Part shown: positions 19,944 to 51,464 of the stretch, one piece after another
Layout: the number at the start of each line of letters is the position of its first letter
Numbering within the stretch: the first letter of the stretch is position 1
IMG/VR virus record: IMGVR_UViG_3300024259_001623
From: a virus
Lineage: Duplodnaviria > Caudoviricetes
DNA length: 64,000 bases
Strand: one strand, 5' to 3'
Notes under the pieces: model-generated
The model's input: the letters and a program-made list of their open reading frames with translations, nothing else
What the model was told of the DNA's origin: nothing
Database searches by the model: none
Position numbers and translations under genes: made by a program

Positions 19944-20522
19944 TTACATCAGATTTTCTAATTCTGATGCATTATCTAGAATTGAGTCATCAGATACTTC
20001 AGATTTCTCGTAATCAACAGAACCTTCAGTATTTTTAGACATTTTAGAAACAGCCTTAGCATGCATTGTAGCTATCTTTTCTATATCGATATCATCAGAT
20101 TCTTCTATCGCTACAGGCTGCTCAGTGTTATTTGAATCCCCAGACGTATTACTATTTTTTAATATATTTAATATCTGACTGACTTGCCCCATAATATCAG
20201 AATCAGAATTATTATTATCTTGCTTTTTAAGTCCAGACAACTGCTCTTTCAACTCATCTTTCATAAAATTCTTCAATTCATTTAAGATTTCTTCTTTTTC
20301 AAAATTATTAGGATTATCTACTTGAGACTTCTTAGAGACAGATTCCTCTCTATGTATGACTTTAACTTTCCCTTTTCGTTCAGCAAGTCGTAAATTATCT
20401 GACCTCTCTGGAGATACAAGAGTTTTTACTTTATGTAGATCGATAGCCTGATTAGGCCCTAAAGTTATACCTAAATCCGATAAAGTTATTTCATTCCGAC
20501 TTGAATTAGCTATTAGATACAT
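19944..20522 (-). CDS. Hypothetical protein with the shared N-terminal ~55-aa module and a coiled coil
   Basis: ANSSRNEITLSDLG...LRLAERKGKVKVI aligns with regions of 43133, 43798 and 48570. Confidence 0.65.
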   Translation of the reverse strand: MYLIANSSRNEITLSDLGITLGPNQAIDLHKVKTLVSPERSDNLRLAERKGKVKVIHREESVSKKSQVDNPNNFEKEEILNELKNFMKDELKEQLSGLKKQDNNNSDSDIMGQVSQILNILKNSNTSGDSNNTEQPVAIEESDDIDIEKIATMHAKAVSKMSKNTEGSVDYEKSEVSDDSILDNASELENLM

Positions 20523-20705
20523 TTAATATCTTCTTTGTGTTCGTATCCTGGGTAAGGGTTCTGGTTTTGGTTCTAAACAGATTTTATTTTCTTTTTTACA
20601 ATGAGGACATACATAATATAAGTTCCCATCAGAAAAATTTATCTCAATAGTTATATCGTCACCAGAAGGTTCTGCGCAATATTTGCAAATACAATATATT
20701 TTCAT
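20523..20705 (-). CDS. Small zinc-ribbon protein
   Basis: CKYC...CPHC. Confidence 0.65.
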   Translation of the reverse strand: MKIYCICKYCAEPSGDDITIEINFSDGNLYYVCPHCKKENKICLEPKPEPLPRIRTQRRY

Positions 20706-20707
20706 TT

Positions 20708-47939: not shown

Positions 47940-48485
47940 CTAAACCACTTTAATATAAGCAACGTTTTCGGCACTGACTTTTCCTTGATAATAAATAGCA
48001 GCGACTAAAACAGAATAAGCCCCTGTCATATTCTCTCTAAGTATAAAGCCTGGATCACCACCATAAACTCCATTTCTAGCAAAATAAGTAGCAGAATTAG
48101 AAGGTTTATATATATTAGCAGCTTGAGCAGAAGGTAACTTGGCATCTCCATTATATGCAAACAAGATATCAGCTAATTCTTGAGTTTCTCCCTGTTCTAC
48201 AGGACCAATAACGGTGGAATAAATAGCTCGTGGAGACTCTTCTGGCTCAGTTTCCTCGGCATAACGTGACCATTCTCTTAATTCATAAGTAGAAGTCATT
48301 TTTACAGTAACCTGATCTATAAAGATAATAGGCTCACGATGTACTGTAATATCCGTTCCAGAAGTACTTGTAACATTAGTCCAATCTAAATCCGTTTCGA
48401 CAGAAGCTCCAGTTCCATCTGCAAGAACTCTAGTACCAGTTAATAATATTCTTGGAGCAGTTAATACTCTTACAGTTTCAGACAT
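47940..48485 (-). CDS. Hypothetical, probably structural, protein
   Basis: 181 aa, Thr-rich and beta-like; AGGAG RBS. Confidence 0.55.
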   Translation of the reverse strand: MSETVRVLTAPRILLTGTRVLADGTGASVETDLDWTNVTSTSGTDITVHREPIIFIDQVTVKMTSTYELREWSRYAEETEPEESPRAIYSTVIGPVEQGETQELADILFAYNGDAKLPSAQAANIYKPSNSATYFARNGVYGGDPGFILRENMTGAYSVLVAAIYYQGKVSAENVAYIKVV

Positions 48486-48569
48486 ATTTTTCTCCTATTT
48501 TTATTTTAAAAATGCTTATTTTATCATTACACAGATATATCTAAATATCCTTTTATTATTTTACAATCA

Positions 48570-51464
48570 TTAGTTCCAGAAAGTTCCATTTACTTCAACA
48601 TTTACAGCATAGGTGTCACCAGCATAGGTGTCGCCGGTGGCACCACCATCAGCATCTCTCTTTAGGACAATAAACACAGCCGATTCCGGAAGTGATTCTG
48701 GAATACTAAAAACAAATTCAGTTTCATAAATTTGGTCAGCGGTATTCAACGTTGTAGTTGTAACATCAGTATCAATCACTTCAGTATTGGTTCCATCAAG
48801 AACCGTACCAATAAGTGCCTGGCCATAAACAAAATCAAGTGCTACATCACCCGCCGCCTCGTCACTATTAGGTGCCCATCTTATAACGAATCTCAGGGGC
48901 ATTGAGGTATCAAGTCCTGTCGGTACTGCAAATATTAAACCAAATCCATCTTCGTCTCCCTCTTCAAATTTATTCTTCTTAACCTTAAGGTTAATAATAG
49001 AACCGAAATCAACAGTATTATCTTTAGGACCGAGGCCATCTACTTCCCACGAGTTACCCAAATTAACATTCTCAATTTTGCGTTCCTGTCTTGCAGCACC
49101 AAAGAACTCCAGAAATCCGTCCGCATTTATTTCAGTTCTATTAGTATGTAATTTAAATTGTTGAAAAACAGGAGCCGTGGAGATATCAGTTGCGATTCTA
49201 AATCTCATCCAAAATCTATTACCAGTTCCAGTAGTTGGAGGATCATTTTTGATCCAATCACCAGAAATATCATCAAACCTAATCTGTTCCGAGTTAACTC
49301 TCTCAAATAATGTATTTGCATATGAACTATATGGTGCATTAGAATCAGCACTAAAATGATCAAATGCAGTCCAAGCTCCATTCCAATATTCTGCGACTAT
49401 AGACCCGCCATTTAGAACTGCCGCTGTAGCAATTGATGCCTTAATACCTAAAAAATACTTTTTATCAGAGGTAGTATTGTCATCAATATCAGAAGATACA
49501 TAAATCGCATTGTTAGCAGCAACGGCGGGAAATGTAAATGTCGATCCGGAAGCACTAGAAGCTGCGACTGATACATCTGTCCATACCGAACCAATGGCCG
49601 CAAATGTATAAACCATCATAGCTCTAGTATAACTATCTCCCTCTCCTAAGACTGTTTCACGTCCTATTTCGGGCGAGCCAACCTGGAGTTCCTCAAAGAA
49701 CAAGTGGCCTTCATCACCATCTACATCACTACTAAAATCAATCCTAACGATTTCAGGATTAACCATTGATAATTTAGTGGCTGAGAATCTACCACCATTA
49801 ATATTGATTGCTCCAGTTGTGCTCTCTTGTAGTATATCCCAAGTAGACCCATCTATAACCTGGACTAATGCCCCTTCCATACTAGAATCGACCCCTGTAT
49901 TACTAATTCTAATACTATTTGTGCACCCTTCTAAAATATAATCTTGAGAAGTGACTGAGCCACCATCATCTATATGAATACCATTAGTACAAAAAGCAGA
50001 CGCACATGTGATTGCTGAAATAGAACCGCCATCTGCAAAAATTCCGTTCGTACATAATACAGTTCCGCAAGATAATGCAGCGACTCTTCCAGAGTCAGTA
50101 GAATAAATCCCGCTTGCCGTTATACCTTCTACGGTAATATGATCTACACGAAGATTAGTTCCAACACCATCAGCATGAATTCCATTATTACCGCCGGTTA
50201 ATCTGCATCTTACTGCTTCCGCTCTATTTCCACCAGTGGCGAATATACAATCATCATTGGCTGGTCCAGTAATTCCCATATTATATAACGCGGCATCATC
50301 ATCTAAAGTGAACAATGGACTATTATCATCATTTATCCCAACCAAACAAACTTCATCATTATCTCCCTGCACGGCTACATATGATGGAACCGTCAACGGA
50401 TTTTCAGTATAAGACCCTGGCGTAACTCTAATAAGATAAGGATTAGATGCAGTAGCCTCATTCGGACCACCAGCAAATGAATTGATTTCATCAATAGCAG
50501 ACTCAATTGTTAAATATAAATCTCCACCTGTACCGGCGGTATTAGATACTATTAATTCATTTGGAATAGATACTCCACCTATTTCTATATTATTAATAAT
50601 ATTATCAATTTGAGTTTTTGTATAAAAATCAGCAAATTCAGGCTTTACAAAAATTGATCCTTCAGAAGCATCAGCATGTACAACAATCCCGATTTCAGTC
50701 ACCACATCAGGTTGAGTTGGCTTCACATTAGTCCATTCGCCTGCAACAGAAGGAGACAACCATAAACTATCTCCTTCTGTAAATAATGATGTATCAATTT
50801 CTCGAACGATTCCAAATGCAGTTACAAATCCAAAAGACCCATCTTCTATAGTATGAGTTGCAAGACCTATAGCAATCGCTGTTCCTTCGGTATCAGACTG
50901 GGCAAGTGCTATTGTTGGAGCGCCATTTATACCAAGACCAGAACCATCAGCCCCAGTAATTCTAACAGCTTGACCATCGGTAATATCTGATCCAGTATCA
51001 TTAACCACAAGAATCCACGTTTCTTGACCAACCTGTAATGTCACATCAGCCTCGCTATTATAAACAGCCAAAGCTTTTGCAGTATTATCATAAAATAACA
51101 ATCCTTCGCTATGACTAGGATCTGTAGAAAGACTAGGATTTAACTGTATACTATCATATGTATTATCTGTTTCAGTTATATCATTTATCTCTGCTGTGGT
51201 AACATAATCTTCTGGAGCAGACGCAGGAACTGATTTAGCAGCAGAATCAACTTCTTTTACTAACTCAAGAACGCCGGCACGAATAGCCAAAGGAAGTTCT
51301 TGATCTTGAGATATTTCATCGGCATCATAATATCTCAATAAATTTATTGTAGCCCCGGGTTGTATAGATGGTAATTTGAGCAAATTACCTAAACTAATCT
51401 CTCTGTTAGAAATATTTGTCAAAAACCATTTTTCTCTGTTGCTTTGATTGGTAGACTCGGCCAT
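48570..51464 (-). CDS. Fibre/appendage protein with a parallel beta-helix (pectin-lyase-like) region
   Basis: 964 aa; GQAVRITG...AIGLAT...GFVTAFGIV...LWLSP domain; RVTPGSYTE then repeated GIxxxG rungs; shared module at the N-terminus. Confidence 0.65.
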   Translation of the reverse strand: MAESTNQSNREKWFLTNISNREISLGNLLKLPSIQPGATINLLRYYDADEISQDQELPLAIRAGVLELVKEVDSAAKSVPASAPEDYVTTAEINDITETDNTYDSIQLNPSLSTDPSHSEGLLFYDNTAKALAVYNSEADVTLQVGQETWILVVNDTGSDITDGQAVRITGADGSGLGINGAPTIALAQSDTEGTAIAIGLATHTIEDGSFGFVTAFGIVREIDTSLFTEGDSLWLSPSVAGEWTNVKPTQPDVVTEIGIVVHADASEGSIFVKPEFADFYTKTQIDNIINNIEIGGVSIPNELIVSNTAGTGGDLYLTIESAIDEINSFAGGPNEATASNPYLIRVTPGSYTENPLTVPSYVAVQGDNDEVCLVGINDDNSPLFTLDDDAALYNMGITGPANDDCIFATGGNRAEAVRCRLTGGNNGIHADGVGTNLRVDHITVEGITASGIYSTDSGRVAALSCGTVLCTNGIFADGGSISAITCASAFCTNGIHIDDGGSVTSQDYILEGCTNSIRISNTGVDSSMEGALVQVIDGSTWDILQESTTGAININGGRFSATKLSMVNPEIVRIDFSSDVDGDEGHLFFEELQVGSPEIGRETVLGEGDSYTRAMMVYTFAAIGSVWTDVSVAASSASGSTFTFPAVAANNAIYVSSDIDDNTTSDKKYFLGIKASIATAAVLNGGSIVAEYWNGAWTAFDHFSADSNAPYSSYANTLFERVNSEQIRFDDISGDWIKNDPPTTGTGNRFWMRFRIATDISTAPVFQQFKLHTNRTEINADGFLEFFGAARQERKIENVNLGNSWEVDGLGPKDNTVDFGSIINLKVKKNKFEEGDEDGFGLIFAVPTGLDTSMPLRFVIRWAPNSDEAAGDVALDFVYGQALIGTVLDGTNTEVIDTDVTTTTLNTADQIYETEFVFSIPESLPESAVFIVLKRDADGGATGDTYAGDTYAVNVEVNGTFWN

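What the first reader, a model, noticed from the sequence alone, without database searches (positions are those of the whole stretch)
19944..51464. One ~55-aa module shared by four otherwise unrelated proteins
Seen (manual alignment): ANSSRNEITLSDLG...SDNLRLAERKGKVKVI (20352-20522), VRSSSRSNIVLSDLD...FNQLLDSGKIEIL (43379-43558), VNRSNNTIFLSDID...SNSFRLLVSMGQIEIT (45031-45192) and TNISNREISLGNL...QELPLAIRAGVLELV (51258-51434). It heads the active GT4, a fibre and a neck-operon protein. Inference: a docking adaptor that brings a glycosyltransferase and appendages to the same virion site.
Basis: partly seen in the sequence, partly recalled or inferred. Interest (0 to 1): 0.7.

Follow-up and report, generated by a model that had tools for sequence, protein, structure and literature searches.

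The report
New N-terminal module of phage fibres
A previously undescribed protein domain of about 60 residues sits at the front of many unrelated fibre-like proteins, a sugar-adding enzyme and two small proteins of uncultured huge marine phages, most likely as a common plug that attaches them to one partner in the virus particle or its assembly line.

Summary
All four segments exist on the minus strand: N-terminal in P0001 (192 aa), the GT4 P0003 (464 aa) and the fibre-like P0004 (964 aa), internal in P0002 (222 aa).

The four sequences alone give only marginal statistics, and P0004 is not recovered by leave-one-out. With homologue families the case is strong:
- An exhaustive profile search finds 321 cluster representatives.
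- Subfamily profile comparisons give 93-99% probability (E 2e-7 to 4e-16), far above shuffled controls.
- Two AlphaFold models built from non-overlapping alignments show the same order of elements (pLDDT about 90).

The domain has no Pfam, PHROG or PDB match and no tblastn match in GenBank phages. In 142 of 146 hits it is N-terminal. It heads at least 21 unrelated downstream bodies, several with tail-fibre domains. Orthologous fibre bodies in other phages carry different N-termini.

No partner or virion site was identified, and the GT4's presence in the virion is untested.

The commonest bearer (P0001-type) has a second conserved end and always precedes an actin-like (Volactin) gene, hinting at an adaptor role.

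Verdict: a real, new domain family and a new variant of a known design principle. Its function is inferred.

The parts
20349..20522 (-). Module copy 1: N-terminus (aa 1-58) of P0001, the 192-aa P1-type protein
   Evidence: Translation. AF2 pLDDT about 90 with strands 2-6, 12-14, 19-21, 26-28, helix 42-49 and strand 53-57. 73 bits against the pan-family profile.
19947..20081 (-). Second conserved end of P0001 (aa about 148-192), ending in the acidic ...SELE(N/D)LL peptide. The spacer between the two ends is poorly conserved.
   Evidence: Across 82 full-length P1-type proteins the top-residue frequency is 0.54 in the module, 0.23-0.28 in the spacer and 0.47-0.50 in the C-terminal 45 aa. E187 is 88%, L188 98% and L191 90% conserved (tails).
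43364..43567 (-). Module copy 2: internal (aa about 79-146) in P0002 (222 aa). It lacks the family's conserved Asn and Ser.
   Evidence: Translation. 44 bits. hhalign F2 against F1 gives 93.5% / 2e-7, and against the pooled rest 95.4% / 2e-8. Orthologues in L004 and L020 keep it.
45013..45192 (-). Module copy 3: N-terminus (aa 1-60) of P0003, placed in front of a GT4 catalytic body
   Evidence: Translation. Pfam Glyco_trans_1_4 at 246-387 and PHROG glycosyltransferase at 105-455. E-x7-E motif at 344-352. GT4s of cultured phages align only from residue about 96-122. hhalign F3-F1 95.5%, F3-F4 94.5%.
51231..51440 (-). Module copy 4: aa 9-78 of P0004 (964 aa, fibre or tailspike-like body)
   Evidence: Translation. 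AF2 with the P4-type alignment alone gives pLDDT 88 and pTM 0.72. 81 bits. hhalign F1-F4 98.7% / 4e-16. The body shares a domain with tail-fibre-annotated P0151. Orthologue P0011 has a weak pectate-lyase-like hit.
40225..45192 (-). Conserved operon: module-GT4, P2-type protein (start overlaps the GT4 stop), 241-aa protein, S8-like 265-aa protein, 434-aa protein
   Evidence: The GT4, P2-type, 241-aa and S8-like genes keep the same order in L004 and L020; the 434-aa gene matched only in L020 (gene table). Coordinates; Peptidase_S8 hit.
8064..20705 (-). Conserved tail-morphogenesis block holding the P1-type gene: 60-aa ORF, P0001, Volactin (18792-19907), then 245, 97, 306, GT4-like 408, 156, tail-tube 341, 187, 82, 140 and a tape-measure-like 1543-aa protein
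   Evidence: Synteny with L009, L014, L015 and L016. Volactin E 9e-57. Phage_tube_2, Glycos_transf_1 and a tape-measure PHROG hit.

Best explanation
The four segments are copies of one autonomous domain of about 60 residues (a small sheet of about five short strands plus a helix), belonging to a family not yet described in Pfam, PHROGs or the PDB and so far seen only in uncultured phages.

It works as a portable protein-protein docking head. Placed at the N-terminus, it attaches very different distal bodies to one common acceptor in the virion or its assembly intermediate. In this phage those bodies are a fibre or tailspike-like protein and a GT4 glycosyltransferase, together with the coupled small protein P0002 and the tail-block protein P0001.

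Shown: homology, fold autonomy, N-terminal position, promiscuity of the bodies, domain swapping, and structural-gene context.

Inferred: that the domain docks, that the acceptor is shared, and that this brings the GT4 next to the appendages (to glycosylate them or their surroundings).
For: Homology and fold:
- 321 representatives at E<=1e-3.
- Subfamily hhalign 93-99% probability, far above shuffled controls.
- Same element order in two independent AF2 models at pLDDT about 90.
- Conserved core of N17, S/T19, D27, L28, P36, D41, L42, S54, L57 and G64.

Anchor-like behaviour:
- The module starts within the first 25 residues in 142 of 146 hits.
- 33 downstream bodies fall into 21 unrelated clusters.
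- Among 31 long bearers, Pfam finds Mtd_N, pectate-lyase-like, Laminin_G_3, phage tail repeat, collagen and GLUG, and PHROGs finds many tail-fibre and tail families.
- P0004's body occurs in L001 and L002 with quite different N-termini, and those contigs have no module at all.

Conservation and context:
- The sister phage G004 keeps the module on the orthologues of P0004, the GT4 and P0002.
- GT4s of cultured phages lack the module.
- The module-GT4 plus P2-type pair is conserved in three phages.
- The P1-type gene lies in a conserved tail block.
- A module-bearing fibre in another phage sits behind a cluster of sugar, sulfate and methyl transferases.
- The design matches the documented N-terminal anchor domains and docking peptides shared by several receptor-binding proteins (PMC6872550).
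Against: - No acceptor protein was identified and no binding was demonstrated.
- Most bodies behind the module have no annotation, so 'fibres' is established only for a subset.
- In P0002 the module is internal, which is unusual for an anchor.
- Three contigs of 44-113 kb carry only the P1-type copy, so the P1-type protein does not need nearby module-bearing fibres. These contigs are only 9-20% complete.
- Small stand-alone module proteins exist, and their role under this model is unclear.
Confidence: 0.5

Rival explanations
1. Homotypic coupling domain. The modules bind one another rather than a third-party site. The universal P1-type protein would be the hub: its module pairs with modules on fibres, the GT4 and P0002, while its conserved acidic C-terminal peptide plugs into something else, possibly the actin-like Volactin encoded next to it (a ParR-like adaptor layout).
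For: - The P1-type is the commonest bearer (86 of the 146 domain-bearing hits among the 150 listed).
- It has two conserved ends joined by a variable spacer.
- It is directly upstream of Volactin in 5 of 5 phages (Pfam).
- The GT4 and the P2-type protein both carry the module and are translationally coupled neighbours in three phages.
- In the distant phage G002, which has no module on its P0004 homologue, the gene before Volactin is unrelated to the P1-type.
Against: - No evidence of module-module contact.
- Both AF2 monomer models are confident as free-standing globular units.
- Contigs with a P1-type gene but no other module within 44-113 kb exist.
- The ParR analogy rests on layout and on established knowledge recalled from memory, not on a test.
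Confidence: 0.2
2. Glycosylation handle. The module is what the sugar machinery recognises: either the acceptor itself (the conserved N-x-S/T) or a handle by which the module-GT4 finds module-bearing substrates. On this reading it marks proteins for glycosylation rather than for attachment.
For: - Asn is 94% conserved and Ser/Thr two positions later 90% conserved.
- A GT4 carries the same module.
- Virion glycosylation by phage enzymes is known in mycobacteriophages (Freeman et al. 2023, cited in PMC12619734).
Against: - The N-x-S/T maps to the tight turn between the first two strands in the model, where a structural role (Asx/ST turn) is the simpler reading.
- The P2-type copies lack the Asn.
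- GT4 enzymes are not known N-glycosyltransferases (established knowledge).
- The stretch after the module is not enriched in Ser/Thr (0.19 vs 0.20, p = 0.18).
- Many module-bearing contigs show no adjacent GT.
Confidence: 0.1
3. Generic oligomerisation (for example trimerisation) or folding-nucleus domain, with no specific address function, reused wherever an oligomeric N-terminus is useful.
For: Fibres are typically trimers (established knowledge). The domain is small, autonomous and precedes elongated or repeat-rich bodies. P0001 continues into long helices after the module.
Against: An oligomerisation role does not explain why orthologous bodies exchange this N-terminus for unrelated ones. 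It also does not explain the internal copy in P0002, or 70-85-aa stand-alone copies. No oligomer was tested.
Confidence: 0.12
4. Chance resemblance or compositional artefact of an AT-rich genome: the four segments are not homologous.
For: With the four sequences alone, P0004 is not recovered and the other E-values are only 1e-2 to 1e-4. In one family-level leave-out test P3 and P4 were not recovered.
Against: - Profile-profile scores of 24-78 against a shuffled maximum of about 21.
- 321 database hits with full-length alignments.
- Intermediate sequences bridge the types.
- Congruent independent AF2 models.
- Conservation in orthologues of three other phages.
Confidence: 0.02

Closest known systems
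N-terminal anchor domains and conserved docking peptides of phage receptor-binding proteins (T7 gp17 and K1F anchors; K1-5/SP6 and G7C branched systems; Klebsiella phages with up to 11 RBPs; Latka et al. 2019, PMC6872550)
   Same: A conserved N-terminal element is shared by several appendage proteins whose distal parts are unrelated and horizontally exchanged. Truncated 'anchor-only' remnants occur there as well as here.
   Different: - No sequence or fold relationship to those anchors was found.
- Here it is a 60-aa globular domain, not a 7-30-aa peptide or a 150-300-aa anchor.
- It also heads a glycosyltransferase and small non-fibre proteins, and once lies internally.
- No T4 gp10-like acceptor domain was identified.
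- Attachment is not demonstrated.
Virion glycosylation by phage-encoded glycosyltransferases in mycobacteriophages (Freeman et al. 2023, PMC10527164, as cited in PMC12619734)
   Same: Phage glycosyltransferase genes lie among structural genes, with virion proteins as the likely targets.
   Different: Those enzymes are not reported to carry a fibre-type N-terminal module. Here neither glycosylation nor the target is shown. The paper was seen only through a citation.
YqbF N-terminal domain (PDB 2hjq) and DUF2635-like small phage proteins
   Different: The scores are below significance. No Pfam match appeared for any of 71 members, so relationship is unproven.
T4-type capsid-targeting sequences, and the MNWYK N-terminal tag noted elsewhere in this same genome (earlier notes e1-5379433, e1-5379519)
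   Same: An N-terminal address element shared by unrelated proteins of one phage.
   Different: Those are unstructured peptides of about 8-11 residues, thought to be removed. This is a folded 60-residue domain on appendage-type proteins, and the two do not overlap in sequence.
ParR-type adaptors of actin-like ParM segregation systems (for the P1-type protein only; recalled knowledge)
   Same: A small protein with an N-terminal binding domain, a flexible spacer and a conserved C-terminal peptide, encoded beside an actin-like ATPase gene.
   Different: No sequence or fold relation, no centromere, a tail-morphogenesis context, and the interaction with Volactin is untested.

Membership tests
Phage RBP N-terminal anchor / docking elements (functional class) | Located at the N-terminus of the appendage protein | tested here: met
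   142 of 146 hits start within residue 25; three of the four window copies.
Phage RBP N-terminal anchor / docking elements (functional class) | Conserved element joined to divergent, exchangeable distal bodies | tested here: met
   21 unrelated clusters among 33 bodies. The P0004 body occurs with other N-termini in L001 and L002.
Phage RBP N-terminal anchor / docking elements (functional class) | Bodies are fibres, spikes or receptor-binding proteins | tested here: inconclusive
   A subset has tail-fibre PHROGs or Mtd_N, pectate-lyase, Laminin_G_3, PTR, collagen or GLUG domains. Most have no annotation. One class is a GT4.
Phage RBP N-terminal anchor / docking elements (functional class) | Physical attachment to a tail, baseplate or adapter protein | not testable with these tools
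   No partner is known. It needs virion proteomics, cryo-EM or binding assays.
Phage RBP N-terminal anchor / docking elements (functional class) | Sequence or fold homology to a characterised anchor (T7 gp17 N-terminus, P22 head-binding domain, T4 gp10-like) | tested here: inconclusive
   None appears among PDB matches. Absence from these lists does not exclude it.
GT4 glycosyltransferases (for P0003) | Pfam GT4 / group 1 domain above the curated cut-off | tested here: met
   Glyco_trans_1_4 at 48.1 bits (cut-off 27) and Glycos_transf_1 at 39.5 bits (cut-off 26.4). PHROG glycosyltransferase E 5e-27.
GT4 glycosyltransferases (for P0003) | E-x7-E motif in the C-terminal Rossmann domain | tested here: met
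   Residues 344-352; conserved in P0159.
YqbF_N / DUF2635-like small phage domains | Significant profile or fold match | tested here: inconclusive
Capsid-targeting-sequence-type N-terminal tags | Short (about 10 aa) unstructured leader peptide | tested here: not met
   The conserved unit is 60 residues and folds as a globular domain at pLDDT about 90.
ParR-like actin adaptors (for the P1-type protein) | Two-ended layout with a conserved C-terminal peptide, and a gene adjacent to an actin-like ATPase | tested here: met
   Conservation profile. Adjacency in 5 of 5 phages. Volactin E 9e-57.
ParR-like actin adaptors (for the P1-type protein) | C-terminal peptide binds the actin-like filament; N-terminal domain binds the cargo | not tested
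It needs a binding assay or a further prediction.

The most novel reading that the evidence does not exclude
The module is the coupling element of a cytoskeleton-assisted assembly line. The two-ended P1-type protein binds the phage's actin-like Volactin filament with its conserved C-terminal peptide. With its module it recruits module-bearing fibres and the module-GT4, so that appendages are gathered, glycosylated and delivered to nascent tails along a phage-encoded actin filament.
Probability: 0.07. Interest if true: 0.9.

Novelty: new variant of a known kind. Interest (0 to 1): 0.55.

Why it matters
Huge uncultured phages are known almost only from sequence, and most of their structural proteins are unannotated.

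- **Annotation handle:** a compact, easily recognised domain that marks appendage-type proteins (at least 21 different bodies so far) gives a practical way to find receptor-binding proteins and host-range determinants in metagenomic phage genomes.
- **Enzyme on a fibre-type head:** finding the same head on a glycosyltransferase suggests that these phages physically couple a sugar-adding enzyme to their appendage system. No phage is known to do this, and it bears on virion glycosylation as a shielding or adhesion strategy.
- **Actin link:** the two-ended P1-type protein beside a phage actin homologue offers a concrete, testable lead for what phage actin-like proteins do during morphogenesis.

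Tried and rejected
- Plus-strand reading of the given coordinates gives only stops.
- Four-sequence statistics alone were too weak to include P0004. One family-level leave-out with few orthologues failed for P3 and P4. Deeper families resolved this.
- IMG/VR scans with P0001 and P0002 alone found no relatives.
- The word-based search added no P0002 relatives and only near-identical GT4s.
- tblastn of P0001 and of a P4-type module against 50,697 GenBank phage records found no match.
- The pan-family profile against PDB sequences and Pfam over 71 members gave only scattered chance-level hits.
- Complex prediction of the P4-type module with the P1-type module returned 'no answer' (score 0.00). 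It says nothing for or against binding.
- The idea that the linker after the module is Ser/Thr-rich (an O-glycosylation tract) was rejected: 0.19 vs 0.20, p = 0.18.
- The profile of P0004 homologues against PDB gave only sub-threshold left-handed beta-helix hits.

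
Full report
**1. The observation**

The coordinates translate to nonsense on the plus strand. All four genes are on the minus strand, and the quoted peptides are there:
- P0001 (19944-20522, 192 aa): the module is at residues 1-58.
- P0003 (43798-45192, 464 aa): residues 1-60.
- P0004 (48570-51464, 964 aa): residues about 9-78.
- P0002 (43133-43801, 222 aa): the module is internal, at residues about 79-146.

Outside the module the four proteins share nothing significant. P0003 is a GT4 glycosyltransferase (Pfam and PHROG hits) and keeps the E-x7-E motif at 344-352. The module itself matches nothing in Pfam or PHROGs.

**2. Is the similarity more than chance?**

The four sequences alone leave it open. 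BLASTP links P2-P3 (2e-5) and P1-P2 (2e-4) but links P4 to nothing. Leave-one-out HMMs against all 474 ORFs of the window recover P3, P1 and P2 weakly and do not recover P4.

I therefore built families.
- Orthologues of P0004, the GT4 and P0002 in a sister phage (IMG/VR contig G004, locus L004) all keep the module.
- P0001 has orthologues with a conserved N-terminus.
- A 9-sequence profile searched exhaustively against 1.84 billion proteins returned 321 cluster representatives at E<=1e-3, 14 of them at <=1e-10.
- Of the 150 listed, two were repeat-protein artefacts without a domain-level match.
- The rest fall into four types: 86 P1-type proteins (median 193 aa, module at residue 1), 61 P4-type (module at residues about 5-20 onward, on proteins of 70-1082 aa), and a few GT4-type and P2-type. 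Some sequences combine features of the P1 and P4 types.

hhalign between the subfamily alignments gave:

| Pair | Probability | E-value |
|---|---|---|
| F1-F4 | 98.7% | 4e-16 |
| F3-F4 | 94.5% | 8e-8 |
| F1-F3 | 93-95.5% | 3e-7 to 1e-8 |
| F2-F1 (after adding a fifth P2-type member from L020) | 93.5% | 2e-7 |
| F2 vs pooled F1+F3+F4, over 64 columns | 95.4% | 2e-8 |

In the first round, before the fifth P2-type member was added, forty column-shuffled controls per pair gave mean scores of about 10 and maxima of about 21, against observed scores of 24-78.

The families were collected with a mixed profile, which could bias them slightly toward a common consensus. The margins are far larger than that could explain.

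As an independent check I modelled P0001 with only P1-type sequences and P0004:9-80 with only P4-type sequences. Both give a confident compact domain (pLDDT about 90; pTM 0.72 for the isolated domain). The order of elements is the same: a first strand, short bridging strands, a strand ending in the conserved D-L, a helix carrying the conserved S-x-x-L, and a final strand after the conserved Gly.

The 71-sequence alignment has N17, D41, S54 and G64 (P0004 numbering) at 90% or more. No fifth copy exists in the window.

**3. What the family looks like**

- **Position:** the module starts within the first 25 residues in 142 of 146 hits.
- **Bodies:** behind it, 33 bodies of at least 150 residues fall into 21 clusters with no detectable mutual similarity.
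- **Annotated bodies:** among 31 long bearers, Pfam finds Mtd_N, pectate-lyase-like, Laminin_G_3, phage-tail-repeat, collagen and GLUG domains, and one more GT4. PHROGs finds numerous tail-fibre, tail and structural families.
- **Unannotated bodies:** a per-protein look shows that most bodies are unannotated. 'Fibre' is therefore established only for a subset.
- **P0004:** it shares the module, an adjacent linker motif and a second domain with P0151, which has strong tail-fibre PHROG hits. Its orthologue P0011 has a weak pectate-lyase-like hit.
- **Swapping:** the conserved body of P0004 (residues about 312-964, 50% identity) occurs in two other phage contigs with entirely different N-termini, one of them repeat-rich. 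Those contigs (50 and 225 kb) contain no module at all.
- **GT4 without the module:** GT4s of cultured phages (Streptomyces phages) align with P0003 only from residue about 96-122, so the module is an add-on to the catalytic body.
- **Stand-alone copies:** module proteins of 70-85 aa exist, one of them a complete gene two genes upstream of a 1082-aa bearer.
- **Distribution:** all hits examined are unnamed metagenomic proteins. The two tblastn queries against GenBank phage records (P0001, and a P4-type module) found no match.

**4. Context**

The window belongs to a 434-kb uncultured marine huge phage.

*The GT4 operon.* The module-GT4 is followed, with overlapping stop and start, by P0002, then a 241-aa protein, an S8-like protein and a 434-aa protein. 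The first four genes recur in the same order in L004 and L020, and the 434-aa gene also in L020. In L020 the GT4 is interrupted by an intein/LAGLIDADG insertion.

*The tail block.* P0001 lies in a block that is syntenic in five phages: a 60-aa ORF, the P1-type gene, the actin-like Volactin (E 9e-57), several unknown proteins, a second GT4-like protein, a tail-tube protein (Phage_tube_2) and a tape-measure-like giant.

*The P1-type protein.* It has two conserved ends. Across 82 full-length members the top-residue frequency is 0.54 in the module and 0.47-0.50 in the C-terminal 45 residues, which end in an acidic peptide with a nearly invariant Leu. The spacer scores only 0.23-0.28.

*Sugar enzymes.* Another module-bearing fibre (P0046) sits directly behind a cluster of a glycosyltransferase, an epimerase, two sulfotransferases and several methyltransferases.

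**5. Mechanism**

The architecture is the one documented for anchor domains and docking peptides of phage receptor-binding proteins (PMC6872550): a conserved autonomous N-terminal domain, unrelated and exchangeable distal bodies that are partly fibre-like, and the same body with other heads in other phages.

The most likely reading (about 0.5) is that the module is a docking head that attaches its bearers to one acceptor in the virion or its assembly intermediate. The GT4 and its coupled partner P0002 would use it to reach the same place as the appendages.

The steps from 'anchor-like architecture' to 'binds a virion site' and 'same site for all' are inference. No acceptor was identified.

Rivals:
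- **Homotypic coupling (about 0.2):** the P1-type protein acts as hub, possibly tied to Volactin through its C-terminal peptide. This is suggested by its two-ended layout and invariant gene adjacency.
- **Generic oligomerisation nucleus (about 0.12).**
- **Glycosylation handle or acceptor (about 0.1):** suggested by the conserved N-x-S/T. It is weakened because the motif sits in the turn between the first two strands, is absent from the P2-type, and GT4s are not known N-glycosyltransferases. The Ser/Thr-rich-linker idea failed.
- **Chance:** effectively excluded.

**6. Comparison with known systems, and novelty**

No solved structure or known family matches:
- Foldseek gives E >= 0.2 against PDB and >= 0.04 against BFVD.
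- The Atlas gives only unnamed viral clusters.
- The profile against PDB sequences and Pfam tallies give chance-level hits.

The domain family itself is therefore undescribed. The principle it appears to follow, a shared N-terminal anchor on multiple appendages, is well known.

What is unusual:
- a glycosyltransferase carrying a fibre-type head, conserved in at least three phages;
- the internal copy in its coupled neighbour P0002;
- the two-ended small protein beside a phage actin.

I class it as a new variant of a known kind, of moderate interest.

**7. Limits**

- The whole genome was not searchable, so the total copy number is unknown.
- Relatives are fragments (9-44% complete), so co-occurrence could not be tested properly. 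The one informative case fits an all-or-none pattern but is a single incomplete genome: G002 has no module on its P0004 homologue, no P1-type gene, and a Volactin preceded by an unrelated small protein.
- Only the best 150 of the 321 hits could be inspected.

Noticed in passing
window 18792-20522 (-); also L009, L014, L015, L016: The P1-type protein has a second conserved end (last 45 aa, acidic peptide ending ...ELE(N/D)LL with Leu 98% conserved). It is encoded directly upstream of the actin-like Volactin gene in 5 of 5 phages. The layout resembles an actin-filament adaptor such as ParR.
   Followed up: partly
The function of the set is unknown.
   Followed up: partly
L020:268-2955: The GT4 orthologue P0050 (895 aa) is split by an insertion of about 390 aa with LAGLIDADG, Hint and intein hits. 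The GT4 halves align to P0003 residues 1-403 and 351-461, so an intein seems to sit in a phage glycosyltransferase.
   Followed up: no
window 15643-16866 (-): A second GT4-like gene (408 aa) is a conserved member of the tail block between Volactin and the tail-tube gene (homologues in L009, L014 and L016). It carries no module.
   Followed up: partly
L021:4391-4630 and 5245-8493: A complete 79-aa gene consisting of the module alone lies two genes upstream of a 1082-aa module-bearing protein. Several other 70-85-aa module-only proteins are among the hits. They could be caps or competitors for the docking site, or remnants of truncated fibres.
   Followed up: partly
window 51536-52078 (-); L021:9253-9756: A sigma-70-like gene (regions 2 and 4) lies immediately upstream of P0004. 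A weak Sigma70_r4 gene also neighbours the module-bearing P0143 in another phage.
   Followed up: no
L010:1-9917: Upstream of the module-bearing fibre P0046 lies a dense cluster of one glycosyltransferase, an epimerase/dehydratase, two sulfotransferases and about six methyltransferases.
   Followed up: no
window 20708-26005 (-); L014:6930-9821: The 798-aa and 962-aa proteins upstream of P0001 both match the same single 964-aa ORF of L014 at about 25% identity. They look like tandem paralogues of one large unannotated structural protein.
   Followed up: no
L023:9325-10588 (G002): In a more distant huge phage the Volactin homologue (31% identity) is preceded by an unrelated 81-aa protein with a Lys-rich middle and an acidic C-terminus. 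This may be an analogous small partner of the phage actin.
   Followed up: partly
module residues N17-x-S/T19 (P0004 numbering), all types except P2: A formal N-x-S/T motif is 90-94% conserved. In the model it forms the turn between the first two strands. It is probably structural, but it lies in a protein set that includes a glycosyltransferase.
   Followed up: partly
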